This document shows, piece by piece, positions 2,685-19,484 of a stretch of DNA of 32,000 nt (its first letter is position 1; each line of letters begins with the position of its first letter). The stretch comes from Alkalithermobacter thermoalcaliphilus JW-YL-7 = DSM 7308. GTDB taxonomy: Bacteria; Bacillota; Clostridia; Peptostreptococcales; Peptostreptococcaceae. Below the pieces are notes generated by a model. That model saw only the letters and a program-made list of their open reading frames with translations. It made no database searches and was not told the origin of the DNA. The translations under genes and the position numbers were made by a program. The stretch covers positions 1,650,421-1,682,420 of the forward strand of contig NZ_LSFY01000001.1 of NCBI RefSeq assembly GCF_001584565.1, read 5' to 3'.

Positions 2685-2721
2685 AAAAAAAAATCAAGAA
2701 TAGGATGATCCTATTCTTGAT
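2685..2721 (-). terminator. Rho-independent terminator after the acidic repeat protein gene
   Basis: 13-bp stem ATCAAGAATAGGA / TCCTATTCTTGAT (2693-2705 / 2709-2721) with a 3-nt loop, followed on the minus strand by a U-tract (2685-2692). The stem overlaps the last codons and the stop codon. Confidence 0.8.
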
Positions 2722-6441: not shown

Positions 6442-6499
6442 AAAGATCCCGTTACAGAAAACTTAAAAAACTTTTAAAAGTTTATGTTTCCTTCCTTGT

Positions 6500-6700
6500 T
6501 CATCGTGTCTAGTTTCGAAAAATCTACTCCTGTTTATTTGACACTCCGAAGGCTTAAATTCCCGACTAACGAATCGGTACATATCAATAATAGCTTTAGG
6601 TGCTATGCTATTGATTTACCATAATTTTTTAGGTTTATACTTGCATTTAAGTCTCTATCTATCTCATAGCCACATTCATCACATATAAATGTTCTTTCTG
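6500..6700 (-). ncRNA. Putative TnpB omega-RNA (reRNA) scaffold / IS right end; boundaries approximate
   Basis: TnpB guide RNAs are known to start inside the 3' end of tnpB and run through the right end. The 100 nt after the tnpB stop is locally GC-richer and has stem-loops, for example CCGAUU-CGUU-AGUCGG at about 6564-6579. No alignment is possible here, so this is an inference. Confidence 0.3.
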
Positions 6701-7650
6701 ATAAAGAAAATTTGTTTTTTAAAGCACCACATATGCTACAAGTTTTAGATGAAGGATAGAATGTATCTGCAAGTATAAATTTAATATCATTTAAGGCACA
6801 TTTATATTCCATTTGTCTTTTAAATTCGTAAAATAGCTGCTCTTGTATTGATTTTGATAATCTTTTATTTTTCAGCATTCCACAAGTATTTAAGTTTTCC
6901 ATAACTACATACTCTGGCTTGGCTTTCACCAAAGATGCAGTTATCTGATGAATATAATTATGCCTTATGTTTTTAAGCCTTCTTCTCATTTTTAAAACAA
7001 GGAATTCTAACTTTTTTATATTGTTAGTTTTTCTGTAACGGTATTCACCTCCGTTCATTTGAATTTTGTTTAATTCATATTTTTTAGATAGCTTTTTTTG
7101 TAATCGTTTTTGTCTTTTCTCAAGTTTTTTAACTTTACTTGTTTTATTTATGTTTTTGTACTTTTGTCCTGTACTTATTGTATCTTGATAAAAGCTTGGC
7201 TTACTTTTTTTCTTTGATTTAAACTTAGGAAAGTTTGCTCTGCCTTCAAAGAAGTTTTTATATGCAATACAGGCATCTTTTATAGCTTGTTTTGTTATAT
7301 TATTTGAATAGTCATTAAGCCATGAGTATTCTTTTGTCTTTTTTAGTTCAGTTAATCTTTTTCTAAGTTCACAATCACTTAAAAACTTACTACAATTTTT
7401 ATAATTTTCTTGCTCTGTTGCTAACGCAAAGTTATATGCCCATCTTGCAACTGAAGCACACTCAAATAATTTTGTTCTTTGTTTGTTATTAGGCAAAAGC
7501 ATAACTTTATAAGTTTTAATCATTGGAATTATCACATCCTAATGAATTCAAATCTGTAAAATAATTATAGATATTTATATAATTTTATAAATATAATTTA
7601 ACTGTTAATGTCCTCCTTTTTACGGAAAAAGACTCTCCCTATTTGAAGCC
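6520..7650 (-). mobile_element. IS200/IS605-family (IS1341-like, tnpB-only) element remnant; ends not determinable from a single copy
   Basis: A solo tnpB without tnpA lies in the otherwise conserved tatD-yabE intergenic region. It is flanked by GC-richer structured segments at 6530-6600 and 7610-7660, both containing a GAAG(G/C)CTT motif. Confidence 0.35.
6603..7523 (-). CDS. tnpB: TnpB-like RNA-guided nuclease homologue, internally deleted (lacks RuvC-I segment)
   Basis: N-terminus MIKTYKVMLLPNNKQ...ARWAYNFAL is the OrfB_IS605 N-terminal helix region. VVMENL (RuvC-II Glu), the zinc finger CSICG...CDECG and IDRDLNASINL (RuvC-III Asp) are all present. It is 306 aa from the ATG at 7521-7523, versus about 370-410 aa for typical TnpB. 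The track's GTG start at 7535 has no usable SD spacing. Confidence 0.85.
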   Translation of the reverse strand: MIKTYKVMLLPNNKQRTKLFECASVARWAYNFALATEQENYKNCSKFLSDCELRKRLTELKKTKEYSWLNDYSNNITKQAIKDACIAYKNFFEGRANFPKFKSKKKSKPSFYQDTISTGQKYKNINKTSKVKKLEKRQKRLQKKLSKKYELNKIQMNGGEYRYRKTNNIKKLEFLVLKMRRRLKNIRHNYIHQITASLVKAKPEYVVMENLNTCGMLKNKRLSKSIQEQLFYEFKRQMEYKCALNDIKFILADTFYPSSKTCSICGALKNKFSLSERTFICDECGYEIDRDLNASINLKNYGKSIA

Positions 7651-7657
7651 TTCATCC

Positions 7658-7686
7658 ATTCTAAACTATTTTTGAATCATTGTCAA
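7658..7686 (-). promoter_or_regulatory. Near-consensus sigma-A promoter reading toward tnpB and the yabE operon
   Basis: Minus strand reads TTGACA (7681-7686), a 17-nt spacer, then TAGAAT (7658-7663). Confidence 0.5.
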
Positions 7687-7816
7687 ATTCGAGCCTCCTT
7701 TATATAGGTTTTGCTACTTATTCATATTATTTCCATGAATTCTATTTATTATGTATAAATCTTTAACTAACATCAATTGTATTCTTTAAACTATATATTT
7801 ATGAGTATAATCTGAT

Positions 7817-7845
7817 CAAAAAAATAAAGAGGCAAGGCCTCTTTA
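7817..7845 (-). terminator. Rho-independent terminator after tatD
   Basis: AAAGAGGC / GCCTCTTT stem (7826-7833 / 7837-7844) followed by a U-run on the minus strand (7817-7825). Confidence 0.8.
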
Positions 7846-7847
7846 TT

Positions 7848-8612
7848 TTATATATTAAAAAGTATCTTTGCATTTTTTGTTGTAATTTCACATACTTTCT
7901 CATACGAAATACCTTTTTCTATTGCTATCTTTTCTGCAATATATCTTACATAAGATGGATCATTTCTTTTTCCTCTATGAGGATGGGGTGCTAAGTACGG
8001 GCAGTCCGTTTCTATAAGTAAATATTCTAGTGGTATTTTTTTTATTACTTCAACAGTCTTTACATTATTTTTAAAAGTTACAGGACCTGCTATTGATATA
8101 AAGCATCCCATTTTTACATACTCTTTTGCAAGTTCTAAGCTTCCTGAGTAGCAATGTAAAACACATCCTATATCTTTGCTCTTTGTGGTTTTTATAATAT
8201 CAAATGTATCTTTGTGAGCATCTCTATCGTGAACTATTATAGGAAGTTTAACTTCATTTGCTAGCTGTATTTGTCTTTCAAACCATCTTTTTTGAATTTC
8301 TCTAGGAGAGTTTTCATAATAATAATCAAGTCCAATCTCTCCTATTGCTACTACTTTTTCATGTTTTGAAAGTGTCTTTAATAAATTTATAGTATCTTCA
8401 TTCATATCTTTTACATCGTGGGGATGTACTCCCACAGATGCATATATAAAATCATATTTTTCAGAAAGATGTATACTTCTTTTAGATGATGCTATATCAG
8501 CTCCTGCATTTAAGACATATTTTACATTCTCACTTTTTATTTTTTTTATAACCTCATCTCTATCTTCATCAAATCTTTCATCATCTAAATGTGCATGACT
8601 GTCAAAAAGCAT
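7848..8612 (-). CDS. tatD: TatD-family metal-dependent DNase/hydrolase (YabD)
   Basis: 254 aa. MLFDSHAHLDD...GEIGLDYYY...HDRDAH...HCYSG...ETDCPYL is the full TatD motif set. There is an 11-nt gap after metG. Confidence 0.95.
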   Translation of the reverse strand: MLFDSHAHLDDERFDEDRDEVIKKIKSENVKYVLNAGADIASSKRSIHLSEKYDFIYASVGVHPHDVKDMNEDTINLLKTLSKHEKVVAIGEIGLDYYYENSPREIQKRWFERQIQLANEVKLPIIVHDRDAHKDTFDIIKTTKSKDIGCVLHCYSGSLELAKEYVKMGCFISIAGPVTFKNNVKTVEVIKKIPLEYLLIETDCPYLAPHPHRGKRNDPSYVRYIAEKIAIEKGISYEKVCEITTKNAKILFNI

Positions 8613-8623
8613 TTTTTCCTCCT

Positions 8624-10561
8624 TTAACGTACTTCTACCCCTGAAGGCATATTCTCAACCGTAGGAAGAACTAATTTTTCATCATCATCAGTAGCAGCTG
8701 CTAATATCATTCCTTGAGACTCTACTCCTCTTAGTTTAACAGGTTTTAAATTGCATACAACTAAAACATTTTTTCCTACTAACTCTTCAGGTTTATAGTA
8801 TTTTGCTATACCAGAAACTATTTGTCTTTTCTCACTTCCAAGCTCAAGTTGAATAACTAATAATTTATCTGCTTTAGGATGCTTTTGAGCTTGTAATACT
8901 TTTCCTACTCTTATTTCTACTTTATCAAATTCATCTATTGTTATTGCTTCTTTGTGATTTAGAGGCTTTACTTGCTCTTTGTTTTCAAACATTTTTTCCA
9001 TCTCCTCAAGTTCCTTTTCTATATCTATTCTAGGGAATAGTGGATCTGATTTTTTTACCTTTGTTTCTTGTTTTATTTTTCCAAACTCTTTTATACTATC
9101 CCAAGTTAATATTTCTTTATCATTTTCTATTCCAAGTTGAGAGTATATCTTTTTAGAAGTTAACTCCATAAAAGGAGTAAGTGCAACTGCAATTATTCTT
9201 ATACTCTCACAAAGATTGTAAAGAACTGTATCTAGTTCATCACTTTTTTCCTCATCTTTTGCTATAACCCAAGGCATAGTTTCATCTATATATTTATTAC
9301 TTCTTCTTACAAGCTTCCATATTTCTTCTAAAGCTTCACTAAAGTTTAACTTATCCATATTTTCTTCTACTTTTTTGTGTAGATTTTCTCCTATTTCCCT
9401 AACCTGACTGTGAACACCTTCAAATAATTTTGCTGAAGGAATATTGCCTTGTCTGTATTTTTCAACCATAGCTACTGTTCTACTAACTAAGTTTCCTAGG
9501 TCATTACATAAATTTGAATTTATTCTGTTTAAAAAGTTTCTATTTGTATAACTTCCATCTTGTCCAAATGTAAACTCTCTAAGAAGGAAATACTTAAGCG
9601 CATCTATACCATATCTTTCTATAAGTGGCTGTGGATAAACTATATTTCCTTTAGATTTTGACATTTTGTCATCTGCAAATAAAATCCAACCGTGTCCAAA
9701 TATTTGTTTTGGAAGTGGTATTTCTAAAGCCATAAGTATCGCAGGCCATATTATACTATGGAATCTAACTATTTCTTTTCCTACTATGTGAACATTAGCT
9801 GGCCAAAATTTCTCATATTCTGATTGGTCATCAGTTAAATATCCTAAAGCAGTTATATAGTTACATACTGCATCAAACCAAACGTATATAACGTGTTTTT
9901 CATCAAACGGAACCTTAATTCCCCAGTCAAAAGTTGTACGTGAAACACAAAGGTCTTCAAGTCCAGCTTTTAAAAAGTTATTTAACATTTCATTTTTTCT
10001 ACTTTCTGGATAACAAAACATTGGGTTTTCTTCAAAATGTTTTATTAAAGCATCTTGGTATTTAGATAACTTAAAAAAGTATGCTTCTTCTTTAGCTATT
10101 TTAGCTTCTCTATTACAATCAGGACATTTATTTCCTTCTAAAAGCTGAGTTTCTGTCCAAAAGCTTTCACAAGGAGTACAATACCATCCTTCATATTCAC
10201 TTTTATATATATCTCCTTTTTCATATAAAATTGTAAATATTTTTTGCACTATTTTTTTGTGTCTATCTTCCGTAGTTCTTATAAAATCATCATAAGATAT
10301 ATCCATTGTCTTCCATAATTTTTTTATATCCTCAACTATATCATCTAGGTATTCTTTAGGAGATAATCCTTTTTCTATAGCTGTTTTTTGAATTTTTTCT
10401 CCATGTTCATCTGTTCCTGTTAAAAATTTTACATCATATCCTGTAAATCTTTTAAATCTAGCTATAGCATCTGCTGCTACTGTTGTATATGTATGTCCTA
10501 TATGAAGCTTTCCACTTGGATAATAAATAGGAGTTGTTACATAAAATGTTTTATTTTTCAT
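8624..10561 (-). CDS. metG: Methionine--tRNA ligase with C-terminal tRNA-binding (Trbp111/EMAP-like) domain
   Basis: 645 aa. HIGH motif (KLHIGHTYT), KMSKS motif (DKMSKSKGN), zinc knuckle CxxC...CPDC, and a C-terminal VEIRVGKV...KLLV...VCNLKPVKLRGVESQGMILAA. Confidence 0.97.
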   Translation of the reverse strand: MKNKTFYVTTPIYYPSGKLHIGHTYTTVAADAIARFKRFTGYDVKFLTGTDEHGEKIQKTAIEKGLSPKEYLDDIVEDIKKLWKTMDISYDDFIRTTEDRHKKIVQKIFTILYEKGDIYKSEYEGWYCTPCESFWTETQLLEGNKCPDCNREAKIAKEEAYFFKLSKYQDALIKHFEENPMFCYPESRKNEMLNNFLKAGLEDLCVSRTTFDWGIKVPFDEKHVIYVWFDAVCNYITALGYLTDDQSEYEKFWPANVHIVGKEIVRFHSIIWPAILMALEIPLPKQIFGHGWILFADDKMSKSKGNIVYPQPLIERYGIDALKYFLLREFTFGQDGSYTNRNFLNRINSNLCNDLGNLVSRTVAMVEKYRQGNIPSAKLFEGVHSQVREIGENLHKKVEENMDKLNFSEALEEIWKLVRRSNKYIDETMPWVIAKDEEKSDELDTVLYNLCESIRIIAVALTPFMELTSKKIYSQLGIENDKEILTWDSIKEFGKIKQETKVKKSDPLFPRIDIEKELEEMEKMFENKEQVKPLNHKEAITIDEFDKVEIRVGKVLQAQKHPKADKLLVIQLELGSEKRQIVSGIAKYYKPEELVGKNVLVVCNLKPVKLRGVESQGMILAAATDDDEKLVLPTVENMPSGVEVR

Positions 10562-10589
10562 AAATTTTCCTCCTTCATTTTATATTTAA

Positions 10590-10838
10590 GCAAAAAAACT
10601 CACCCCTAAATTTAGGGGTGAGTTTATCTCACGGTACCACCCTAGTTTTTACTCTAGTAGGCTATAACGTGCCTTTACGTTCCATCTTACTTAGTTTCAG
10701 ATGAAAGGCTCAAGGGCCATGTTCAATAAAGCTTTCAACGCTAGCTTTCACCCACCCTAGCTCTCTATTAGAAGAAAACTTTATCTACTCTTCCTTTCAA
10801 CGCCTTTAACTTATTTTTGAATGTTTACTTTTATTTTT
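10590..10838 (-). promoter_or_regulatory. T-box riboswitch leader with AUG (Met) specifier, controlling metG
   Basis: The minus strand shows GAAGAGUA and AGAGAG...GGUGGGUGAAAGC stem-I elements. The specifier context is GAAC-AUG-G (codon at 10708-10710). The T-box sequence AACUAGGGUGGUACCGUG lies at 10630-10647. A terminator AAACUCACCCCUAAA/UUUAGGGGUGAGUUU plus U-run lies at 10592-10625, about 30 nt before the metG SD. Confidence 0.88.
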
Positions 10839-10844
10839 AGCAAA

Positions 10845-10873
10845 ATTCTATATAATTATTCCTTTTATGTCAA
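10845..10873 (-). promoter_or_regulatory. Sigma-A promoter for the metG T-box leader
   Basis: Minus strand reads TTGACA (10868-10873), a 17-nt spacer, then TAGAAT (10845-10850). Confidence 0.6.
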
Positions 10874-10934
10874 GTATTACTTGTTTTATTTTACCTTTTT
10901 AATATAAAACTAAATGTAAAGGCAGGTGAAATTT

Positions 10935-11648
10935 ATGAATTTGATAGAAAAAGCATATTCTAAAGCTTTACAAGTATATTTTTCTATTATTAATCCTTTA
11001 AAAAAGAAAGTAATAAATACCCACTGCAAAGTTCATAAGTTTATAAATGCTCAGGCATTAAAAATTTTAAGAAATGATAAATATATAGATGAATTTAACT
11101 TTTTTTGCAATTATATAACTGCAATTAATGATGGAACTGTTTGGGCAGATCAAGATTTTAAAAGTAATGGTCATTTTTATAGTGTTAAAACTAAAAAAGG
11201 TCTTTATGGTGGGTATAGTGCTATGAATTTAGCTAAAGAATATTACGAAAATGCTCTTAAATTTTGGAATATAAGCGATGAATATAATTCTTTATTTTAC
11301 TTAGGAGCATGTATTCACATAATTCAAGATATGACTATACCACAACACGCTAATGTTAAGCTTTTAGATAACCATAGACAATACGAAAATTTCGTTAAAA
11401 AAACTTATAGGTATATACAAGATTTTAAATGTGATAAAGGAGCTTATCTTCTAGATTCAGTAGATGAATACATAAGGTTTAATGCAAGAGTTGCTATGAA
11501 GATATATAGAAAGTTTAAATATATAAAGGAAGATAATGAAAGATTTTATAGAATATCAAGATGTACAGTTCCACTAGCTGAAAGGACTTCCGCAGGAGCT
11601 ATGATTATGTTTTTTAAAGATATAACAAAATCTTCTTTGAAAAATTAA
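10935..11648 (+). CDS. Zinc-dependent phospholipase C-fold family protein, no signal peptide
   Basis: HKFINAQAL...WADQD...GHFY...LGACIHIIQDMTIPQHAN matches the Zn-ligand pattern of the bacterial PLC zinc-binding domain. The ATG at 10935 follows AGGCAGGTGA. The track's GTG at 10926 is unlikely to be the start. Confidence 0.7.
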   Translation: MNLIEKAYSKALQVYFSIINPLKKKVINTHCKVHKFINAQALKILRNDKYIDEFNFFCNYITAINDGTVWADQDFKSNGHFYSVKTKKGLYGGYSAMNLAKEYYENALKFWNISDEYNSLFYLGACIHIIQDMTIPQHANVKLLDNHRQYENFVKKTYRYIQDFKCDKGAYLLDSVDEYIRFNARVAMKIYRKFKYIKEDNERFYRISRCTVPLAERTSAGAMIMFFKDITKSSLKN

Positions 11649-11703
11649 TAAAAAAGACTTTGCTCTAACACATGATGGAAATTATCACTTTCTCACAATT
11701 TAT

Positions 11704-11731
11704 AAAAAAAACTCCATTAAGGAGTTTTTTT
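11704..11731. terminator. Bidirectional terminator between the PLC-like gene and a small ORF
   Basis: AAAAACTCC-ATTAA-GGAGTTTTT, with A/T runs on both sides. Confidence 0.8.
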
Positions 11732-11919
11732 TATTTCTCGTATTGCTTTCTTATTGATATTACTTTTTTTCCTTTTTGTTTTCCATGTTGAATAACATTT
11801 TCTTCTTTATCTATGTCATATGCTCCAAGCTCTTTTGCAAATTCTAAATTTCTTTCATTGCTTCTTAGCTTTGCTACTTTTTCTATTCTTGTTTGTTTAT
11901 TTTTATTTTTCTTTGCCAC
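11731..11919 (-). CDS. Small lysine-rich hydrophilic protein, possibly a YfhD-like forespore protein
   Basis: The likely start is GTG at 11917-11919, 9 nt after AGGAG, giving VAKKNKNKQTRIEKVAKLRSNERNLEFAKELGAYDID... (62 aa). The track extends it to 11970. The EFAxEL core resembles the YfhD family as I remember it. The gene has its own terminator. Confidence 0.45.
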   Translation of the reverse strand: MAKKNKNKQTRIEKVAKLRSNERNLEFAKELGAYDIDKEENVIQHGKQKGKKVISIRKQYEK

Positions 11920-12000
11920 TTTAACACACTCCTTTTTTATAATTTCATTTTTATTTTTTGAAGAAAGCAAAATTAAATTCTATGTAAATTTTGCATAAGA

Positions 12001-12027
12001 ATAGGCAAAGGTTTTCCCTTTGCCTAT
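12001..12027 (-). terminator. Terminator-like hairpin after the 56-aa ORF
   Basis: ATAGGCAAAGG / CCTTTGCCTAT 11-bp stem with a 5-nt loop, overlapping the stop codon. The trailing U-tract is weak. Confidence 0.5.
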
Positions 12028-12194
12028 TTTCCCATTCTCTCTGTTACTCCTTGTTTGTAAAAGTTTCCATTTTGTTTGTTGTTTTCTCTATAAGAAAATA
12101 TGTTTTCTTCACTTATATCAAAATCTTGTGCCATTTCTGTTTTTAAGTCCATATTTTTAGCTTCTTTTGAAATTTTTTTATCCTTTGTATCCAT
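12024..12194 (-). CDS. Unlisted 56-aa hydrophilic ORF (below the track's length cutoff)
   Basis: GAGGGATG-tgt-ATG start context. My translation is MDTKDKKISKEAKNMDLKTEMAQDFDISEENIFSYRENNKQNGNFYKQGVTERMGK, with TAG at 12024-12026. A hairpin follows. The plus-strand 91-aa ORF at 12167-12442 is a hydrophobic shadow. Confidence 0.45.
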   Translation of the reverse strand: MDTKDKKISKEAKNMDLKTEMAQDFDISEENIFSYRENNKQNGNFYKQGVTERMGK

Positions 12195-12291
12195 ACACAT
12201 CCCTCTTTTCTTTTATTATCATATTTATTATTTCAGTATTTTTAATATTAATTCTGTGTAAGGTATGGATAAAGTGTAATTTATTAGATAC

Positions 12292-12486
12292 TTATCTTAT
12301 AAGTTCTAAACTTTTATACACTTTGCTTTCTAGTATTTCTTCTTCATTAAAGTTTTTTAATAGAAAATCTATCTCAAGTGCTAGTGATGTCATTGCTAAT
12401 TCTCTTTCATCAGTTGTTATTATTCCCATATTTAATAAATAATTCATAGCCTCAACAGCGTAAGCTTTTATTATATTATTTTTCAT
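12292..12486 (-). CDS. 64-aa helical hypothetical protein
   Basis: Good SD (CAGGAGGGATATGT-ATG). Predicted helix-turn-helix-like hairpin MKNNIIKAYAVEAMNYLLNMGIITTDERELAMTSLALEIDFLL. The family is unknown. Confidence 0.55.
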   Translation of the reverse strand: MKNNIIKAYAVEAMNYLLNMGIITTDERELAMTSLALEIDFLLKNFNEEEILESKVYKSLELIR

Positions 12487-12723
12487 ACATATCCCTCCTG
12501 AAAATTATCTGAAAATTGATTTTTTTATATTTATATGCATCAAAAATTGCTTTTGTACGTATTGATATAAAACAGACGCTTCACAAAGTCTAGTATTTTA
12601 AAACTATACAGAGCTTAAGATGTTCATTGTACTGCATAGTTTTTAATTTAACATATTTATTTTTGAATAATTTTTTTTTATTTTTTCATTTTCAGGAGGA
12701 ATAGTATATATTTTTTAACATAG

Positions 12724-13245
12724 TTATCTAAAAACAATACTACATATAAATATAGATGCAAGCACCCCTGCCATATGACTTACAAGTGCACAAAATAATG
12801 TGTATCTTATATTTTTTATTTTTAAACTCCCATAATATATTGCCATAGTATAAAATATAGTCTCTGAAGATCCTAAGATAGTTGCTGCCATTCTTTCTGT
12901 TACTGTATCTATTCCAACTCTTCCTATTATATCTTTGTATAAAGCTAAAGATCCACTTCCAGATAATGGCTTTACTATAACTAGTGATATTAACTCTCTT
13001 GGTATATTAAATATTCTAAGTATTGGATATAAAATCGCCTCTAGAATTTCCATCCCATAGCCTTCTTTAAATATTCCAAGTGCTAAAAATATTCCTATTA
13101 GATATGGAGCTATTTTGTAGGCTGTTTTTATTCCTTCATATGCTCCTTTAACAAAACTATCATAAACATCTATTCCTTTATATTTTCCATATATTATTAT
13201 TATTAATATAATTAATGGAATTACTGTATTAGAAAATGTATTCAA
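12724..13245 (-). CDS. spmB: Spore maturation protein B
   Basis: 173-aa polytopic membrane protein. TTG start 1 nt after the spmA stop, with AAGGAG upstream. The nucleoside-recognition-domain half partners SpmA. Confidence 0.85.
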   Translation of the reverse strand: MNTFSNTVIPLIILIIIIYGKYKGIDVYDSFVKGAYEGIKTAYKIAPYLIGIFLALGIFKEGYGMEILEAILYPILRIFNIPRELISLVIVKPLSGSGSLALYKDIIGRVGIDTVTERMAATILGSSETIFYTMAIYYGSLKIKNIRYTLFCALVSHMAGVLASIFICSIVFR

Positions 13246-13246
13246 A

Positions 13247-13819
13247 TCAACTGCTCCTTTCCATTAGTTTACAAGATACTATACCAACTAGTGTTGATAT
13301 AGCTGTTGCAAACAATGTAGTAAAAATTATTTCACTTGGATTTACAGACCCTTCATCTAGTCTTATCTTTAAAACTGTTATAGGAACTAGTTGTATTGAT
13401 GACATATTTATAACTAAAAACATTATCATATCACTTGATGCACTAGTTTTGTTAGGATTTATCTGTTGCATTTTTTCCATAGCTTTAAGCCCAAAAGCAG
13501 TAGCTCCATTAGATGCTCCAAGCATATTTAATGACATATTCATTAATATGTAAGAAACTGCTTCTTTTGATTTTACTATATTTGGAAACAAGAACTTTAT
13601 AACTGGTTCAAGCCATTTTCCTATCAAGTCTACAAGGCCAGATTCTTTTGCTATATTCATAATTCCCATCCAAAGGGCCATAATCCCTATAAGACTTATA
13701 GTAAAATCTACCCCTTTTGCACTTTCAGTTATTATTACTTTATTTAGTTCTTGTAATCTTGAAAATATAAAACTGTTTATTATTCCTATACATATCATAT
13801 AAATCCATATTTTATTCAT
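13247..13819 (-). CDS. spmA: Spore maturation protein A
   Basis: 190 aa. It appears collinear with B. subtilis SpmA as I remember it (WMGIMNIAKESGL, FPNI, NMSLNMLGASNGATAFGLKAMEKMQ, MIMFLVINMSSIQLVP). Confidence 0.85.
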   Translation of the reverse strand: MNKIWIYMICIGIINSFIFSRLQELNKVIITESAKGVDFTISLIGIMALWMGIMNIAKESGLVDLIGKWLEPVIKFLFPNIVKSKEAVSYILMNMSLNMLGASNGATAFGLKAMEKMQQINPNKTSASSDMIMFLVINMSSIQLVPITVLKIRLDEGSVNPSEIIFTTLFATAISTLVGIVSCKLMERSS

Positions 13820-13853
13820 AAAAAAAACCTCCTCATGTAATCTTATGAGGAGG
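13820..13853 (-). terminator. Terminator-like hairpin whose 3' arm is the spmA Shine-Dalgarno sequence
   Basis: CCTCCTCAT (13828-13836) / ATGAGGAGG (13845-13853). The minus-strand RNA reads CCUCCUCAU-loop-AUGAGGAGG-UUUUUUUU-AUG(spmA). Confidence 0.6.
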
Positions 13854-13862
13854 CCATAATTT

Positions 13863-14501
13863 TTATTTTATTTTTTTAATGTATCCTATTATGTCTTTGA
13901 AATTTTCATATTCATAAAATTTTATGTCTTTACCTTTTAAATACTGAGCAAGTTCTCCTTTTGCAAATATGTAATCTCCAAGCTTTGATGCACACCTATC
14001 TGAATATCCATCACCTATGTATATTATTTTTTTGTTGTCTATATTTATATTTTCTATTATGTTTTTTTTGCAATTCCCACACTTTGTGCACTCATCGTTT
14101 TTATTAGGAAAAATTCCAATTATTTTATCGTTGTCAAATTTTAATATGTTTGAAAATGTCATTATTCCATTAATTTCATTTTCCTCAAGAATGTTATCTA
14201 TATTAAAGTCAAATCCATCACTAAGTATGTAAAATTCTAGACTATTTTTTCTTATATAGTCTATAAAGTCTTTAAAGTATGGGTCTATTTTTATAGATCT
14301 TATATATTCTTTTAGTTTTTGCTCATTTACATCTAGCATATCTAATATTTTTTGACTTATATACTGTGCATCATGCTTTCCTTCTATCCACATTTTTTCA
14401 AGCTGATCATAGTTTCCCTTAGCAAACTTTTTGGCCATAGCAACGCATGTATCTTCAGTTGTTATGGTTCCATCAAAGTCACAAATTACTATATATTCCA
14501 C
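13863..14501 (-). CDS. HAD-IB family phosphatase, MtnX-like
   Basis: 212 aa. DFDGTIT motif I, SDG motif II, GDGYSD motif IV, and the CTKCGNCK cysteine cluster seen in MtnX-type enzymes. Confidence 0.75.
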   Translation of the reverse strand: MEYIVICDFDGTITTEDTCVAMAKKFAKGNYDQLEKMWIEGKHDAQYISQKILDMLDVNEQKLKEYIRSIKIDPYFKDFIDYIRKNSLEFYILSDGFDFNIDNILEENEINGIMTFSNILKFDNDKIIGIFPNKNDECTKCGNCKKNIIENINIDNKKIIYIGDGYSDRCASKLGDYIFAKGELAQYLKGKDIKFYEYENFKDIIGYIKKIK

Positions 14502-16125: not shown

Positions 16126-16311
16126 ATGCAAATTAGAAGAGCGAAAGAAATAGTTGCTTCACCTGAAAATGTAGAAGTTATATACAAGGGTAAACCAGTT
16201 TGGATTGAAAGTATTAACAACCAAACAAATTCTGCTTATGTAAGATACCTAGATAATAGTGAAAGAATGGAAGTTCCAGTAATGGAGCTAGTTGAAAACG
16301 AAAAACACTAA
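16126..16311 (+). CDS. sspH: H-type small acid-soluble spore protein
   Basis: 61 aa. MQIRRAKEIVASPENVEVIYKGKPVWIE...EVPVMELVE follows the SspH family pattern (RAKEI..SP....V.Y.G.P..I). AGGAGGTG SD. Confidence 0.85.
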   Translation: MQIRRAKEIVASPENVEVIYKGKPVWIESINNQTNSAYVRYLDNSERMEVPVMELVENEKH

Positions 16312-16334
16312 AAGGATGGATTATCCATCCTTTT
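16310..16334. terminator. Bidirectional terminator shared by sspH and herA-like gene
   Basis: AAAAGGATGGA-TTA-TCCATCCTTTT, overlapping both stop codons. Confidence 0.8.
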
Positions 16335-18174
16335 AGTCTATTTTATTATAAGTTACGCCAAATATCCCTTCTTCTTTTGATATTTTCCCATCTTCAACTA
16401 ATCTTTCTAGCTCATCTATTAAATTTTTTGCACTGATTTTTATATCTTTTTTTTCAAGAAGCAATACTATATCAGGTATTTGCATTTCTCTTATAGGAAA
16501 ACTTTCTTTTATATTTTCATATATATAGTTTTTGCTCTTTTGTATGAACTGTTCAAATTCTTCAAATGGATTTTCAGTATGCGGGCTTGTAGTCTTTGCC
16601 ATTCTAATTCTAATCGGTATAGTTCTTCCCATTATTGCAGATGATACAAAGCTATCTCCTGATTTTAAATATGGAAGTCTTTTTGACTCTTCTGAAGTTA
16701 TATCTGTTTCTTCTTTTATTATACTTATATCTTGTCCTCTTACAGTTCTAAATACAAACTTTGTATTTAACTGTGCAGTTACTGTTTCATCGAGTAAATT
16801 TGGCCTTTGTGTTGCTAAAATTAGAAACACTCCATACTTTCTACCTTCTTGAGCTATTTCCTTTATTATTCCCTTTGAAGGCGCATCTTGTCCTTTCGGA
16901 GCAAAATTGTGAGCTTCATCAGTTACTATTATAAAAGGAGGGAAAAATTCACTTTCTATATGCTTTGATTTACAGTCTTTGTATTCTCTTCTTTTTAAGT
17001 ATAATTTGTTTAGTACATAAGTTGAGAATACTTTTATCAATCTCATATCCCCTTGTATTACAACAAGTTTTCCTTTTCTTAATCCGTCCTCTATAAAAGT
17101 TATGTCTTTTCCAAATATACCTTCGTGATAAAGTCTATTTAATCTCCATATAATACCATTTACTGATGCTGCTGGACAAGTCTTTTCGTATTTAGAATAA
17201 ATATTTCTAATTCTTTCATATGTCTGCCTTTGTATCTGATCTTGAGCTTCAATTATTTTTTTATCTATTTTGTCTAATGAACCAATAGCATGTCCTTCGC
17301 TTAAATCTTTAAGCCTTTGAATAAATGTATCATAAGTATCTTTATTTTGATGAAGAGTATCTACTACATTTATCATAGAATCTGTCAAAGACGAAGATAT
17401 AGCAAGAAGTTTTTTGAGCTGATTTTTATCTAATTCTTCAAAATTAATTCCAACATCTACTCCTACTCTATATACATTAAATTTTCCAGCAAAATCATCT
17501 CTATATTTTGCATCTAATTCTATACAAGGATTCGAAAAATCCATTTCAAAATGAGGATCAAACACAACAGTTGGAACATTAAGTTTCATAATTTCTTCTA
17601 ATATAACTCTAATACCAAAACTCTTACCAGATCCTGATCCCCCGAATATTCCTATATGTGGATATTGCTGCATTTTTCTTATATCAAATATAAAAGGAAT
17701 ACCTGTTTGTTTTCTTATATTTGCTTTATCATATATACAAAACAAATCTTTCAAATCATCATCAAGGCTATTTAATATATCCTCTGTTGATCTAATTTCT
17801 CCTAATACAAGTCCTTGTTCTTTTTTACACTTTACAAATATATCTTTCACTTCTTCAAACTTTGGTTTTCTTACTTTTGATCCTGTTTGTATAGGATAAT
17901 CAGCTTCTACTAACAACCTAGCTTTTGCTATATGTATAGTTTCCTCTCCTACTTTATATCCTATATTATTTAGTATTTCAGTCATATTAGAATCAATAAA
18001 TCCTTCATTTACACTTAAAGGAATATACTTATTGTATGATTTTGTATCATAAACTTCTACTAATTGATCCCCCTGATACTCATCTTGTACTATCAGTATT
18101 TCATTTATCTTAAAAGGCCTATCTTTTCCTGCTATATTAACTTCTTGTTGAGTTGTAAAACCTACTACTTGCAT
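16333..18174 (-). CDS. HerA/FtsK-like (DUF87-type) P-loop ATPase with C-terminal extension
   Basis: 613 aa. Walker A GIFGGSGSGKS (aa 175-185, nt ~17620-17650), Walker B FIIVTDEAHNF (aa 414-424, nt ~16903-16935) and LILATQRP (aa 451-458). It has an N-terminal barrel-like segment, and aa 530-613 form an extra helical module. GGAGGAG SD lies in the 10-nt gap after the NurA-like gene. Confidence 0.85.
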   Translation of the reverse strand: MQVVGFTTQQEVNIAGKDRPFKINEILIVQDEYQGDQLVEVYDTKSYNKYIPLSVNEGFIDSNMTEILNNIGYKVGEETIHIAKARLLVEADYPIQTGSKVRKPKFEEVKDIFVKCKKEQGLVLGEIRSTEDILNSLDDDLKDLFCIYDKANIRKQTGIPFIFDIRKMQQYPHIGIFGGSGSGKSFGIRVILEEIMKLNVPTVVFDPHFEMDFSNPCIELDAKYRDDFAGKFNVYRVGVDVGINFEELDKNQLKKLLAISSSLTDSMINVVDTLHQNKDTYDTFIQRLKDLSEGHAIGSLDKIDKKIIEAQDQIQRQTYERIRNIYSKYEKTCPAASVNGIIWRLNRLYHEGIFGKDITFIEDGLRKGKLVVIQGDMRLIKVFSTYVLNKLYLKRREYKDCKSKHIESEFFPPFIIVTDEAHNFAPKGQDAPSKGIIKEIAQEGRKYGVFLILATQRPNLLDETVTAQLNTKFVFRTVRGQDISIIKEETDITSEESKRLPYLKSGDSFVSSAIMGRTIPIRIRMAKTTSPHTENPFEEFEQFIQKSKNYIYENIKESFPIREMQIPDIVLLLEKKDIKISAKNLIDELERLVEDGKISKEEGIFGVTYNKID

Positions 18175-18184
18175 TTTTCTCCTC

Positions 18185-19123
18185 CTAACTTCTCTTTTCT
18201 CTCTTTGGATTTATAAATATTTCTAAAAGCTCTTTATCTATATAAGTTTGTGCTAATACATTTATCATTTCATTAGATATTTTCACTTCTTTATCAACTA
18301 TGTCTATCCATATAGGAATTCCTCTTCCCGATGGATTTGTAAGTGTATATATAATAGAGCATATAGTATCTATATAATCTATTTGACTTTTTAATATATC
18401 TATCCCTATAACACTTGGATCTTTCGATGTTCTGAAAAAACAAGATACTATTCCTTCTTTATTTTTCTTTGATTTATCTGGCTCTATAATTACATATTCC
18501 CCCTCATCTAATACTCCAAATAATAAATCTTTATCATATATTTGATCATCTATATCTATGTGTTTAGATAAATGAAAAGAAATTTCCTTTGTTTTAATTT
18601 CTTCTATTACACCTACTAACAAGCAATTATTTTCAACTGCTAACTGTCTAAGTTCATCCCACTCCTTACCACACCTTATCCTATAAGTCATTAAAGATCC
18701 ATCTACCATTACTAAGTAAGGGGTATATTTTTTTATAGCCTCTATACTAACCTGAGCTTCTAGTTTTGCCATCATACTTTTTTCCTTATTTTCATCATCT
18801 TCATCTCCTTCTATCAAAGGACAATAAATCTGATTTAAGTAAATAGGTTCTTTAGTAGAGTCTACAGGCTTTGCAAGAGCCTGTATAGCTATTATGTAAT
18901 GAGGATATAAATTTCCTATTTTATTTTTACTTCCATCTACACCTACTATATCTTTATTGTTCAATATATTTTTCATTTCGTCTTTATTTAGCTTTCTAGC
19001 TTTTTTTATATCTAAAAGATCTCTTAATTTTTGCTTTTCTACTTTTTTTATTGATCTTAATTTTTGTTTTAGATTTTCATTAGTTTTTTTAAACTCTTGT
19101 ATCAATAATTCATTTATTTCCAT
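18185..19123 (-). CDS. NurA-like 5'-3' nuclease
   Basis: 312 aa. GVDGS (aa 61-65), KLEAQ (E122), VMVDGSL (aa 138-144) and GIPIWIDIVDKE (aa 268-279) occur in the order of the NurA catalytic motifs. The first ~55 aa form a charged helical extension. Confidence 0.75.
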   Translation of the reverse strand: MEINELLIQEFKKTNENLKQKLRSIKKVEKQKLRDLLDIKKARKLNKDEMKNILNNKDIVGVDGSKNKIGNLYPHYIIAIQALAKPVDSTKEPIYLNQIYCPLIEGDEDDENKEKSMMAKLEAQVSIEAIKKYTPYLVMVDGSLMTYRIRCGKEWDELRQLAVENNCLLVGVIEEIKTKEISFHLSKHIDIDDQIYDKDLLFGVLDEGEYVIIEPDKSKKNKEGIVSCFFRTSKDPSVIGIDILKSQIDYIDTICSIIYTLTNPSGRGIPIWIDIVDKEVKISNEMINVLAQTYIDKELLEIFINPKREKRS

Positions 19124-19165
19124 ATATACTCACCCTATCTATTTTTGTTAAATTTAACACTTTTA

Positions 19166-19194
19166 TTGACTTTTTTTTACAACTTTGCTATTAT
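19166..19194 (+). promoter_or_regulatory. Sigma-A promoter of abrB
   Basis: TTGACT (19166-19171), a 17-nt spacer, then TATTAT (19189-19194). Confidence 0.55.
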
Positions 19195-19208
19195 ATAAAT
19201 AAAGATGT

Positions 19209-19215
19209 TGTCGAA
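19209..19215 (+). promoter_or_regulatory. Spo0A box (TGTCGAA) just downstream of the abrB promoter
   Basis: Perfect match to the 0A-box consensus TGNCGAA, in the position where Spo0A~P represses abrB in Bacillus. Confidence 0.45.
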
Positions 19216-19241
19216 AAATGTATAAAAAAGGAGGGTGTCCC

Positions 19242-19484
19242 TTGAAATCTACTGGAATAGTAAGAAGAGTTGACGAACTTGGAAGAATTGTTATACCTAT
19301 AGAACTTAGACGTACTTTAAATATATCAGAAAAAGATGCACTAGAAATATATGTAGATGGCGAAACTATAATATTAAAAAAATATGAACCTGCTTGTGTA
19401 TTTTGTTCAAGCGCAAAAGAAGTTAAATCTTTTGAAGGAAAAAATATCTGCTCAGAGTGTATATCTAAAATAAGTTCTCTTTAA
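19242..19484 (+). CDS. abrB: Transition-state regulator AbrB (SpoVT/AbrB swapped-hairpin DNA-binding domain)
   Basis: KSTGIVRRVDELGRIVIPIELRRTLNI...LEIYVDGETIILKKY is the canonical AbrB N-domain. The TTG start at 19242 lies 6 nt after AGGAGGG. The track's ATG at 19218 adds 8 unsupported residues. Confidence 0.9.
   Translation: MKSTGIVRRVDELGRIVIPIELRRTLNISEKDALEIYVDGETIILKKYEPACVFCSSAKEVKSFEGKNICSECISKISSL

What the first reader, a model, noticed from the sequence alone, without database searches (positions are those of the whole stretch)
16333..19123. Translationally coupled NurA-like nuclease + HerA-like ATPase operon in a sporeformer: candidate uncharacterised DNA-processing or defence module
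What the sequence shows:
- A 312-aa protein carries NurA motifs in the expected order: GVDGS, E122, VMVDGSL and IPIWIDIVD.
- Ten nt downstream, with GGAGGAG in the gap, a 613-aa protein carries Walker A GGSGSGKS, Walker B IIVTDEAH and an ATQRP segment typical of HerA/DUF87 hexameric translocases.
- Both proteins have extra modules. The nuclease has a ~55-aa charged helical N-terminal extension. The ATPase has an ~80-aa C-terminal tail (DIVLLLEKKDIKISAKNLIDELERLVEDGKISKEEG) that looks like a winged-helix.

What is established:
- NurA-HerA is the archaeal double-strand-break end-resection machine and has been studied in Deinococcus-Thermus.
- HerA-family ATPases also scaffold anti-phage systems (Sir2-HerA, DUF4297-HerA).

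Inference:
- In Firmicutes, which use AddAB for end resection, the role of such a pair is not established.
- The pair sits in a block that is absent from the B. subtilis abrB-metS junction.
- It shares a divergent control region with abrB that contains a Spo0A box.
- It could therefore be a sporulation- or stationary-phase-linked DNA-end processor, or a defence module.
Basis: partly seen in the sequence, partly recalled or inferred. Interest (0 to 1): 0.72.

Follow-up and report, generated by a model that had tools for sequence, protein, structure and literature searches.

The report
Conserved NurA–HerA nuclease–motor pair
This is a genuine two-gene DNA-cutting machine (NurA nuclease plus HerA ring motor) of a kind already known from archaea and a few bacteria; here it is an ordinary, vertically inherited chromosomal gene pair shared by many Clostridia-type bacteria, not a mobile anti-phage module, and its cellular job is still untested.

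Summary
On the minus strand of this Alkalithermobacter thermoalcaliphilus window, nurA (18185-19123, 312 aa) sits 10 nt upstream of herA (16333-18174, 613 aa). An AGGAGGAG ribosome-binding site overlaps the nurA stop codon.

- **Family assignment:** Pfam, AlphaFold models and Foldseek all place both proteins with the archaeal NurA and HerA structures. The proposed motifs and D63/E122/D141/D274/D277 are invariant in 83 relatives.
- **"Novel defence or sporulation module" reading:** not supported.
  - In 74 of 74 informative loci the pair lies at the same core-genome site (holB-yaaT-yabB-rsmI-[abrB]-nurA-herA…metG-tatD). These loci span Peptostreptococcales, Tissierellales, Clostridiales, Halanaerobiales and one Bacillaceae.
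  - Its divergence is similar to that of its housekeeping neighbours.
  - NurA has no PADLOC or phage hit, and no defence genes lie nearby.
  - The Spo0A box belongs to abrB: 18 of 43 loci with abrB have it, against 0 of 24 without.
  - No LexA box or sporulation-sigma promoter was found.
- **Extra modules:** the NurA "N-terminal extension" is standard NurA architecture. The HerA C-terminal tail is real, family-wide, winged-helix-like and acidic.

Best reading: a housekeeping linear-DNA end-processing complex. It is a new member, in a distinct Bacillota clade, of a known kind. Interest is modest.

The parts
18185..19123 (-). nurA: 312-aa NurA-family RNase H-like nuclease, annotated in GenBank as 'NurA domain-containing protein'.
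   Evidence: ORF. Pfam NurA 85.4 bits, residues 58-282. AF2 model pLDDT 92.7. Foldseek top hits are T. kodakarensis and S. solfataricus NurA, TM 0.62-0.63. 100% identical to P0001.
18278..18952 (-). NurA catalytic core (aa 58-282). Candidate metal ligands are D63 (beta-1), E122 (helix 110-133), D141 (end of strand 137-141) and D274/D277 (helix 271-280).
   Evidence: These residues are invariant in 83 homologues. Their order and spacing match Sso D58/E116/D133 and Pfu D51/E105/D126. Secondary structure. Convergence on one site in 3D was not measured.
18953..19123 (-). NurA N-terminal helical region (aa 1-57; helices 5-26, 30-36, 47-56). This is the standard NurA N-terminal extension, not an added module.
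   Evidence: pLDDT 83-97. Family members match the profile from position ~1. Sso NurA's N- and C-terminal helical extensions form the flat face that carries the HerA-binding patch. The Dra NurA N-terminus acts in dimerisation and regulation.
18175..18187 (-). nurA-herA junction: TAG stop (18185-18187), Shine-Dalgarno AGGAGGAG (18179-18186), 10-nt spacer, then the herA ATG at 18172-18174.
   Evidence: Across relatives the stop-to-start distance has a median of 12 nt, and 50 of 74 loci have 25 nt or less (three overlap by 4 nt).
16333..18174 (-). herA: 613-aa HerA-type (FtsK-HerA superfamily) ATPase with an N-terminal HAS-barrel-like beta domain, a RecA-like core, a helix-bundle insertion and a C-terminal tail.
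   Evidence: ORF. Pfam DUF87/HerA 72.7 bits. AF2 pLDDT 87.3. Foldseek top hit Sso HerA 4d2i (E 2.5e-28, TMt 0.75), then Tko HerA in the HerA-NurA complex. 100% identical to P0121.
17620..17643 (-). HerA Walker A / P-loop, GGSGSGKS (aa 178-185).
   Evidence: Invariant in 80 homologues.
16912..16935 (-). HerA Walker B, IIVTDEAH (aa 414-421; D419 and E420 invariant).
16336..16569 (-). HerA C-terminal tail (aa 536-613): a long helix (536-558) followed by a winged-helix-like unit (helices 563-575 and 582-594, hairpin 598-611). It is acidic.
   Evidence: pLDDT 77-87. Only sub-threshold Pfam hits, but they recur on winged-helix families. Nothing significant in the PDB by sequence. Net charge is -5 here and the family median is -4. 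Present in every family member checked, including Peptoniphilus.
16307..16337 (.). Bidirectional intrinsic terminator (14-bp stem) shared by herA and the convergent sspH gene (16126-16311, +).
   Evidence: sspH identified by Pfam SspH, 76.6 bits.
19124..19241 (.). nurA-abrB divergent intergenic region. It holds the abrB sigma-A-type promoter (TTGACT-17-TATTAT, 19166-19194, +) and a Spo0A-type box TGTCGAA (19209-19215, +) between that promoter and the abrB TTG start (19242). No nurA promoter is recognisable. This is context only: the box is an abrB element.
   Evidence: The box co-occurs with abrB only (18/43 against 0/24). No sigma consensus is enriched on the nurA strand.

Best explanation
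nurA-herA encodes a chromosomal, vertically inherited NurA-HerA helicase-nuclease complex of a distinct Bacillota clade.

**Proposed mechanism, by homology with the solved archaeal and Deinococcus complexes**
1. HerA forms a hexameric ring.
2. ATP hydrolysis at the Walker A/B sites between subunits drives double-stranded DNA from a free end through the central pore, entering at the helix-bundle face and leaving at the HAS-barrel face.
3. A NurA dimer docks on the HAS-barrel face. It separates the strands and cuts them at two RNase H-like, metal-dependent active sites (D63, E122, D141, plus D274 or D277).
4. The result is either a 3' tail for RecA or complete degradation of linear DNA.

**Expression and cellular role**
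- The two genes are co-transcribed, and translation is probably coupled (10-nt spacer, strong SD over the stop codon).
- In the cell this is most likely a constitutive, housekeeping end-processing or linear-DNA-degrading activity. It would act in recombinational repair or DNA quality control and would be partly redundant with other end-resection enzymes.
- The acidic winged-helix-like C-terminal tail of HerA probably mediates a protein contact or self-regulation, not sequence reading.

**Shown here:** gene structure, family and fold membership, residue conservation, conserved synteny, and the absence of SOS, Spo0A and sporulation-sigma signals for nurA.
**Inferred:** oligomeric state, the HerA-NurA contact, DNA polarity, the cellular role and the tail's function.
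For: **Family and fold**
- Pfam NurA and HerA scores are well above threshold.
- The AF2 models are confident.
- Their best structural matches are NurA and HerA from NurA-partnered archaeal machines, ahead of the anti-phage HerAs.

**Active sites**
- The D-E-D(-D) residues of NurA and the Walker A/B and ATQRP motifs of HerA are invariant in 83 and 80 relatives.
- Their spacing matches the mutationally proven residues of Sso, Pfu and Dra NurA.

**Obligate pairing**
- nurA lies immediately upstream of herA in 74 of the 74 loci where the upstream DNA is present.
- The median spacer is 12 nt.

**Housekeeping and vertical inheritance**
- The position is the same, holB-yaaT-yabB-rsmI-[abrB]-nurA-herA-(spmAB)-...-metG-tatD, in Alkalithermobacter, Tepidibacter, Tissierellales, Caloramator, Fonticella, Halanaerobacter, Peptoniphilus and the Bacillaceae Halalkalibacter suaedae. 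In the last, the pair sits exactly between abrB and metG.
- In 12 loci nurA starts 45 nt or less after rsmI on the same strand.
- HerA identity (median 54%) is like that of RsmI (58%) and MetG (61%), and it co-varies with the neighbours (rho 0.57-0.66).
- The window's flanks are all housekeeping genes.

**Mechanistic template:** PMC9960219, PMC3326311 and PMC12977600.
Against: - No experiment exists for any member of this clade.
- Deletions of bacterial nurA or herA in Deinococcus and Thermus give modest or even improved resistance to DNA damage, so a repair role is itself 'controversial'.
- A 2026 study finds that T. kodakarensis HerA-NurA degrades both strands, and its authors doubt the end-resection role.
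- There is no LexA/Cheo box upstream of nurA in 0 of 67 loci, so the pair does not look like a classical SOS repair gene.
- No nurA promoter could be identified.
- Sequence similarity to characterised NurAs is too low for HMM detection against the PDB. HerA falls far below every NCBIfam equivalog cut-off.
- Complex formation and the geometry of the active site were not modelled.
- The loci examined are the 80 best of at least 328, so synteny in more distant members is unknown.
Confidence: 0.72

Rival explanations
1. It is an anti-phage or anti-plasmid defence system. HerA would act as the sensor and scaffold motor that loads on the free ends of invading linear DNA, and NurA would be the effector nuclease that destroys it. 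This is analogous to Sir2-HerA and DUF4297-HerA, or to the anti-phage side of RecBCD.
For: - HerA hits generic PADLOC HerA models (best 1.7e-27) and the mad8 model.
- Solved anti-phage HerAs are close structural and sequence neighbours (8xau E 7e-18 by sequence; Foldseek ranks 5-28).
- The authors of the 2026 Tko HerA-NurA study propose an antiviral role, because the complex shreds both strands from any end.
- A core-genome location does not exclude a RecBCD-like dual role.
Against: - NurA has no PADLOC hit and no hit in 50,697 phage records.
- The partner is NurA, not Sir2 or DUF4297.
- The PADLOC HerA matches mostly cover only the C-terminal ATPase half. The NCBIfam anti-phage HerA equivalogs score 54-64 bits against cut-offs of 800-850.
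- The pair sits at a fixed housekeeping position across at least five orders and shows neighbour-like divergence. That is the opposite of the patchy, island-borne distribution typical of defence systems.
- No defence genes lie in the 32-kb window.
- The plasmid-borne relatives are 35-37% identical paralogues without NurA.
Confidence: 0.13
2. It is a sporulation- or stationary-phase-specific DNA processor. It would be switched by Spo0A or a sporulation sigma factor and would act on the chromosome during spore formation or outgrowth.
For: - In this genome nurA is divergent from abrB, and a Spo0A-type box lies in the shared 118-bp region.
- sspH is convergent with herA and shares its terminator.
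- spmA/spmB-like genes follow herA by 55-133 nt on the same strand in about 14 relatives.
- Most hosts are sporeformers.
Against: - The 0A box lies downstream of abrB's own promoter and is found only where abrB is present (18/43 against 0/24).
- The conserved intergenic blocks are abrB's promoter elements.
- No sigma E, F, G, H or K consensus match occurs on the nurA strand in 62 upstream regions, which is no more than in shuffled controls.
- In 24 of 67 loci abrB is absent and nurA follows the housekeeping rsmI gene.
- Peptoniphilus and Aedoeadaptatus, non-sporeformers to my knowledge, retain a full-length pair.
Confidence: 0.08
3. HerA works mainly as a DNA pump in chromosome segregation, replication-fork handling or DNA transfer, as in the FtsK/SpoIIIE-type roles once proposed for HerA. 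NurA would be only an accessory.
For: - HerA belongs to the FtsK-HerA superfamily (Pfam FtsK_SpoIIIE 2.5e-08; FtsK structures at E 5e-06).
- HerA is much more conserved than NurA (median 54% against 38% identity).
- The locus lies among replication-linked genes (tmk, holB).
- NurA-less paralogues exist on megaplasmids.
Against: - NurA is always present and tightly coupled to herA, and its catalytic residues are invariant. A dispensable accessory would be expected to decay.
- The HerA tail is acidic, unlike the DNA-reading gamma domain of FtsK. The FtsK comparison rests on my own knowledge.
- There is no membrane anchor or other segregation partner in the operon.
Confidence: 0.07

Closest known systems
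Archaeal HerA-NurA (S. solfataricus 4D2I/2YGK; P. furiosus 3TAI; T. kodakarensis complex 9X1L-9X1P)
   Same: - Best structural matches for both proteins.
[quoted passage not shown]
- HerA with a HAS-barrel, a RecA-like core and a helix-bundle insertion.
- The two genes are linked.
   Different: - Sequence identity is only 12-19%.
- The NurA family profile does not detect the archaeal proteins by sequence.
- The pair is not in an mre11-rad50 operon; neither gene is in the window.
- The fourth active-site residue is probably acidic (D274 or D277), not the His411 of Pfu.
- HerA carries an acidic winged-helix-like C-terminal domain of about 55 residues behind a long helix.
- NurA is shorter (312 aa, against 339-451 aa from my knowledge of the archaeal proteins).
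Deinococcus radiodurans / Thermus NurA-HerA (7WRW, 7WRX, 7F6D)
   Same: - A bacterial two-gene nurA-herA module with no mre11-rad50 partner.
- HerA of about 610-620 aa.
- The N-terminal region of NurA is functionally important.
- The mechanism is the template used here.
   Different: - Very distant in sequence: HerA phmmer E is only 7e-4 to 7f6d, and it ranks 29th or lower in Foldseek.
- Deinococcus-Thermus lacks RecBCD/AddAB, whereas Bacillota generally have AddAB. That is my own knowledge and was not tested for this genome.
- Dra HerA has no reported winged-helix tail; its last 14 residues are disordered.
Thermotoga maritima NurA (1ZUP)
   Same: A bacterial NurA of similar size (330 aa) with an acidic residue (E280) in place of the archaeal catalytic His. 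This parallels D274/D277 here.
   Different: It was not among the top 50 Foldseek hits or any sequence hit. The D-to-E spacing differs (D49...E140, against D63...E122 here).
Anti-phage HerA systems (Sir2-HerA 8XAU/8WIV; DUF4297-HerA 9C1M/8ZIQ)
   Same: The HerA fold and the ATPase-half sequence similarity, and the principle of a ring ATPase paired with one effector gene.
   Different: - The effector is NurA, not Sir2 or DUF4297.
- NurA has no PADLOC hit.
- The pair occupies a fixed core-genome location, not a defence island.
- The NCBIfam anti-phage HerA equivalog cut-offs are missed by more than tenfold.
HerA-like ATPases of Firmicutes megaplasmids (B. thuringiensis BTB_502p, P. polymyxa SC2, C. 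perfringens pJFP838A, C. difficile BI1 300-kb record)
   Same: Full-length alignment that includes the C-terminal tail, and the same domain set.
   Different: Only 35-37% identical. They have no NurA partner: the upstream genes are a coiled-coil protein, a Bax-inhibitor-like protein or a hypothetical protein. They sit on giant mobile replicons.

Membership tests
NurA nuclease family (Pfam PF09376) | Match to the family profile above the curated threshold | tested here: met
   85.4 bits against a cut-off of 21, covering model positions 2-254 of 254.
NurA nuclease family (Pfam PF09376) | [quoted passage not shown] | tested here: met
   AF2 pLDDT 92.7. Foldseek top hits are 9x1m_G and 2ygk_A (E ~5e-11, TMq 0.62-0.63), followed by EndoV and PIWI folds.
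NurA nuclease family (Pfam PF09376) | Conserved catalytic Asp (beta-1), Glu (helix) and Asp (beta-4), as in Sso D58/E116/D133 and Pfu D51/E105/D126 | tested here: met
   D63, E122 and D141 are invariant in 83 sequences and lie on the matching predicted elements.
NurA nuclease family (Pfam PF09376) | Fourth metal-site residue on the C-terminal helix (His in Pfu, acidic in Tma) | tested here: inconclusive
   D274 and D277 are invariant on helix 271-280. Which of the two corresponds to Pfu H411 or Tma E280 was not resolved.
NurA nuclease family (Pfam PF09376) | Toroidal homodimer; Mn2+-dependent nuclease activity that depends on HerA | not testable with these tools
   No multimer prediction or biochemistry is available.
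HerA ATPase (FtsK-HerA superfamily) | HerA/DUF87 central domain with Walker A and Walker B motifs | tested here: met
   PF01935 scores 72.7 bits against 23.2. GGSGSGKS and D419/E420 are invariant.
HerA ATPase (FtsK-HerA superfamily) | Three-domain architecture: N-terminal HAS-barrel, RecA-like core and helix-bundle insertion | tested here: met
   The model has a beta-rich region at 1-105, a RecA-like core and helices at 250-366 inserted after the second core strand. TMt is 0.75 to Sso HerA 4d2i. Domain definition.
HerA ATPase (FtsK-HerA superfamily) | Equivalog-level identity with a curated HerA type (archaeal DSB-repair HerA NF040937/NF040819; anti-phage HerA NF042943/NF042944) | tested here: not met
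   Scores of 54-85 bits against cut-offs of 800-970. This is a separate clade, not an equivalog of any curated type.
HerA ATPase (FtsK-HerA superfamily) | Hexameric ring that translocates dsDNA | not testable with these tools
   Inferred from homology only.
Archaeal mre11-rad50-herA-nurA end-resection operon | Genetic linkage of herA-nurA with mre11 and rad50 | tested here: not met
   All ORFs of 110 aa or more in the 32-kb window were annotated. None is Mre11/SbcD or Rad50/SbcC.
Bacterial nurA-herA two-gene module (Deinococcus-Thermus type) | Adjacent, co-oriented nurA and herA without other dedicated partners | tested here: met
   10-nt spacer here. Adjacent in 74 of 74 informative loci, with a median spacer of 12 nt.
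Bacterial nurA-herA two-gene module (Deinococcus-Thermus type) | Host lacks RecBCD/AddAB, so the pair is the main resection machine | not tested
   Only 32 kb of the genome was available, so addAB, recJ and sbcCD presence could not be checked.
HerA-based anti-phage systems (Sir2-HerA, DUF4297-HerA) | HerA paired with a Sir2 or DUF4297 effector recognised by defence-system models | tested here: not met
   The partner is NurA. NurA has 0 PADLOC hits, and the HerA hits are to generic HerA models.
HerA-based anti-phage systems (Sir2-HerA, DUF4297-HerA) | Patchy, mobile or island-associated genomic distribution | tested here: not met
   Fixed position between rsmI/abrB and metG across at least five orders. 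No NurA in phages. Plasmid relatives are NurA-less paralogues.
HerA-based anti-phage systems (Sir2-HerA, DUF4297-HerA) | Experimentally shown protection against phage | not testable with these tools
LexA (SOS) regulon of Firmicutes | Cheo box CGAAC-N4-GTTCG in the promoter region | tested here: not met
   0 of 67 nurA upstream regions (200 nt) have a match with 2 mismatches or fewer.

The most novel reading that the evidence does not exclude
The Bacillota clade could be an ancient, vertically inherited NurA-HerA machine kept alongside AddAB for a distinct housekeeping task. One candidate task is RecBCD-like wholesale degradation of linear double-stranded DNA, which would serve both chromosome quality control and exclusion of foreign DNA. 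Its family-specific acidic winged-helix tail on HerA would act as a regulatory or adaptor domain, for example as an autoinhibitor or DNA mimic, or as a docking site for a partner protein. If so, this genetically simple clade would be a bacterial system in which the disputed function of HerA-NurA (end resection or DNA destruction) could be settled.
Probability: 0.15. Interest if true: 0.55.

Novelty: new member of a known kind. Interest (0 to 1): 0.3.

Why it matters
What HerA-NurA does in cells is an open question. Bacterial deletion phenotypes are weak or paradoxical. A 2026 structural study argues that the archaeal complex shreds DNA and does not resect it.

This analysis shows that a compact, Bacillota-specific clade is a core-genome module and not a defence island:
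- it comprises only 237 50%-identity clusters out of 1.84 billion;
- it sits at a fixed position next to rsmI/abrB and metG;
- it evolves as slowly as its housekeeping neighbours.

That narrows the hypotheses worth testing. It also flags one clade-specific feature for mutagenesis, the acidic winged-helix tail of HerA. For annotation, the 'ATP-binding protein' or 'hypothetical protein' downstream of nurA in these genomes can safely be called HerA. The finding does not reveal a new kind of system.

Tried and rejected
1. **Residue-level alignment to solved NurAs.** Sequence and profile searches of NurA against the PDB found nothing. Catalytic correspondence therefore rests on Pfam, Foldseek, secondary-structure position and published residue numbers.
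2. **LexA/Cheo box.** A search upstream of nurA found none in 67 loci, so SOS control was rejected.
3. **Promoter scans.** Scans for sigma A, E, F, G, H and K found no enrichment on the nurA strand. An alignment of the closest intergenic regions showed only abrB's elements conserved. The nurA promoter remains unidentified.
4. **Spo0A control of nurA.** Rejected because the box tracks abrB.
5. **FtsK-gamma-like DNA-reading role for the HerA tail.** Considered because both are C-terminal winged helices on motors of the same superfamily. Down-weighted because the tail, including its putative recognition helix, is acidic and has no significant Pfam or PDB match.
6. **Long ORF-free nurA-herA spacers in some Tissierellales (100-470 nt).** No Rfam family was found in the four such loci scanned. 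Occasional inserted ORFs are unrelated: a GIY-YIG/YazA-like protein, an HD-domain protein and a four-helix-bundle protein.
7. **Megaplasmid HerA-like genes.** Checked for a hidden NurA partner and none was found.
8. **Apparent loss of the tail in Peptoniphilus.** The tblastn match stopped at residue 561, but this was an alignment artefact. The ORFs are 615-618 aa with a divergent tail.

Full report
**Source and gene structure**

The window is from Alkalithermobacter thermoalcaliphilus JW-YL-7 = DSM 7308. Both proteins are 100% identical to GenBank entries from that genome.
- On the minus strand, a 312-aa ORF (18185-19123) is followed after exactly 10 nt by a 613-aa ORF (16333-18174).
- The Shine-Dalgarno sequence AGGAGGAG (18179-18186) overlaps the last two bases of the upstream TAG stop.
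- A 14-bp-stem bidirectional terminator (16307-16337) ends the operon. It is shared with a convergent sspH gene.

**Family assignment**

*Profile searches*
- The first protein matches Pfam NurA at 85.4 bits (cut-off 21). The second matches HerA/DUF87 at 72.7 bits (cut-off 23.2).
- HerA scores far below every NCBIfam equivalog cut-off, archaeal or anti-phage: 54-85 bits against 800-970.
- NurA has no hit in NCBIfam, in PADLOC or, by sequence, in the PDB.

*Structure models*
- AlphaFold models built on 83- and 80-sequence alignments are confident, with pLDDT 92.7 and 87.3.
- The NurA model's best PDB matches are T. kodakarensis NurA in the HerA-NurA complex and S. solfataricus NurA (E ~5e-11, TM 0.62-0.63). 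Endonuclease V and PIWI domains, which are other RNase H-like folds, come next.
- The HerA model's best matches are S. solfataricus HerA (E 2.5e-28, TMt 0.75) and T. kodakarensis HerA. These rank ahead of the Sir2-HerA and DUF4297-HerA anti-phage ATPases and of Deinococcus HerA.

**Residues and modules**

*NurA*
- D63, E122, D141, D274 and D277 are invariant in 83 homologues.
- They sit on the first beta-strand, a long helix, a short strand end and a C-terminal helix.
- The order and spacing match the proven catalytic residues of Sso NurA (D58, E116, D133) and Pfu NurA (D51, E105, D126, H411). In Thermotoga NurA the His is replaced by an acidic residue (E280).
- The first catalytic Asp is at position 49-58 in every characterised NurA. 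In Sso NurA the N- and C-terminal helical extensions together form the flat face that carries the HerA-binding patch.

*HerA*
- The Walker A, Walker B and ATQRP segments are invariant.
- The C-terminal 78 residues are predicted as a long helix plus helix-helix-beta-hairpin.
- Alone, the tail gives only sub-threshold Pfam hits. These recur on winged-helix families: EutK_C, Mnd1 HTH, Cullin_Nedd8, FeoC and MCM_C.
- The tail gives nothing significant against the PDB.
- It is present in the whole family, including Peptoniphilus.
- It is acidic, with a median net charge of -4. This argues against a DNA-reading role like that of the FtsK gamma domain.

**Genomic context: the decisive evidence**

*Synteny*
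- A scan of one genome per species found relatives in at least 328 genomes. The best 80 loci were analysed.
- nurA lies directly upstream of herA in all 74 loci where upstream DNA is present.
- The stop-to-start distance has a median of 12 nt and is 25 nt or less in 50 of 74 loci.
- The upstream side, tmk-holB-yaaT-...-yabB-rsmI-[abrB]-nurA-herA, is conserved in nearly all loci that have enough upstream DNA.
- spmA/spmB-like genes follow herA within 55-133 nt in about 14 loci. metG and tatD were found downstream in roughly 25-30 loci.
- This order holds in Peptostreptococcales, Tissierellales, Caloramator and Fonticella, a Halanaerobiales genome, Peptoniphilus, and the Bacillaceae Halalkalibacter suaedae. 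In the last, the pair is the only thing between abrB and metG.
- In 12 loci nurA begins 45 nt or less after rsmI on the same strand.

*Divergence and window contents*
- HerA identity to the window protein (median 54%) resembles that of RsmI (58%), MetG (61%) and Tmk (51%). It co-varies with the neighbours, with Spearman rho 0.57-0.66.
- The window's ORFs of 110 aa or more were annotated. The identifiable ones are housekeeping, regulatory or transport genes (ksgA, rnmV, yabE-like, tatD, metG with a T-box leader, pncB, holB, tmk and others), plus one TnpB-type insertion.
- One 397-aa ORF (2711-3904) has no Pfam match. There is no Mre11/Rad50 and no defence gene.

*Mobile elements and family size*
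- NurA has no hit in 50,697 phage records.
- Plasmid hits to HerA are 35-37% identical paralogues on 300-720-kb replicons, and they lack a NurA partner.
- The NurA subfamily profile matches only 237 50%-identity clusters among 1.84 billion.
- Nearly all named members are Bacillota. One MAG is labelled Methylocystaceae and may be mis-binned.

**Regulation**

- The 118-bp nurA-abrB spacer contains a good sigma-A-type promoter for abrB (TTGACT-17-TATTAT, 19166-19194).
- A TGTCGAA box (19209-19215) lies between that promoter and the abrB TTG start at 19242. To my knowledge this mirrors the Spo0A-repressed abrB promoter of B. subtilis.
- abrB is divergent from nurA in 43 of 67 loci. The exact box occurs in 18 of those 43 and in none of the 24 loci without abrB.
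- The only conserved blocks in the spacer are abrB's -35, -10 and the box.
- No Cheo (LexA) box occurs upstream of nurA in 67 loci.
- No sigma A, E, F, G, H or K consensus is enriched on the nurA strand. The abrB strand does show sigma-A enrichment.
- The nurA promoter is therefore unidentified. Nothing in the sequence ties the pair to Spo0A, SOS or sporulation sigma factors.

**Interpretation**

The pair is a bona fide NurA-HerA helicase-nuclease of a separate Bacillota clade. By homology, a HerA hexamer should pump duplex DNA from a free end into a NurA dimer docked on its HAS-barrel face. There the strands are separated and cut.

Whether the output in vivo is a recombinogenic 3' tail or wholesale degradation is unknown. 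This is debated even for the archaeal enzyme. Bacterial deletion phenotypes are weak.

The fixed core-genome position, the neighbour-like divergence and the absence from mobile elements argue for a housekeeping DNA-end-processing role (confidence about 0.7). The alternatives are a dedicated defence system (about 0.13), a sporulation-specific function (about 0.08) and a pump-centred role (about 0.07).

The positional part is fulfilled. The phenotype part could not be tested.

**Novelty and limits**

- NurA/HerA homologues in Firmicutes are already mentioned in reviews. NCBI already names the nuclease 'DNA double-strand break repair nuclease NurA'.
- This is therefore a new, uncharacterised member of a known kind.
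- Two features are worth noting: the conserved synteny, and the acidic winged-helix tail on HerA.
- Limits of this analysis:
  - Only the 80 closest loci were inspected.
  - Oligomer and interface models were not possible.
  - The rest of the genome (addAB, recJ, sbcCD) was not available.
  - No experimental data exist for this clade.

Noticed in passing
window 6492-7535 (-): A TnpB-like ORF (310 aa; Pfam HTH_OrfB_IS605 plus Cas12f1-like TNB) is inserted between the yabE-like gene and tatD. A RAGATH-18 RNA (61.8 bits) lies immediately downstream at 6492-6552 on the same strand. This looks like an IS200/IS605-type TnpB with its associated RNA, sitting in an otherwise conserved housekeeping cluster.
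   Followed up: no
window 10611-10809 (-): A T-box leader (122.7 bits) lies upstream of metG (8624-10561). The same element precedes metG in L037 and L074.
   Followed up: no
L081 (C. difficile BI1 NC_017177), L082 (B. thuringiensis BTB_502p), L083 (C. perfringens pJFP838A), each at about 6200-8850: 300-720-kb Firmicutes 'megaplasmids' carry a full-length HerA-like ATPase (~600 aa, 35-37% identical, tail included) with no NurA. The upstream gene is variable: a 222-aa coiled-coil protein with a weak SMC_N hit, a 216-aa hypothetical protein, or a Bax-inhibitor-like membrane protein. Neighbours include dnaE, secA, DNA methyltransferases and a CBASS pair. This appears to be a paralogous branch of unknown function.
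   Followed up: partly
L009, L011, L017, L021, L025, L030, L033, L034, L036, L043, L046, L056, L067 (downstream of herA); window 12724-13819 (-): Two 'Gate/nucleoside recognition' membrane proteins resembling spore-maturation proteins SpmA and SpmB follow herA by 55-133 nt on the same strand in many Tissierellales. In the window they are separated from herA by sspH, pncB and a HAD phosphatase. It is unclear whether they are co-transcribed with herA.
   Followed up: partly
L037 9636-10000, L073 9559-9904, L074 9653-10000, L031 9746-10000 and about 15 further loci: About 20 of 74 loci, mostly Tissierellales, have a nurA-herA spacer longer than 100 nt (up to about 470 nt without a convincing ORF). 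The usual spacer is 10-13 nt. No Rfam family was detected in the four loci scanned. In other loci the spacer holds an inserted gene: GIY-YIG/YazA-like in L051 and L080, a 366-aa HD-domain-like protein in L008, and a 124-aa four-helix-bundle protein in L058.
   Followed up: partly
L078 (Halalkalibacter suaedae, Bacillaceae) 7075-14451: A Bacillaceae genome carries rsmI-abrB-nurA-herA-metG-tatD. This is the B. subtilis gene order (from my knowledge) plus the pair, and its HerA is 52% identical to the window's. It suggests either ancestral presence with loss in most Bacilli or a site-specific acquisition.
   Followed up: no
window 19218-19242 (+): The mechanical ORF for abrB starts at ATG 19218. 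Homologues begin MKSTGIVR..., which corresponds to the TTG at 19242, and that codon is preceded by AAAGGAGGG. The real start is therefore probably TTG 19242, giving an 80-aa protein.
   Followed up: yes
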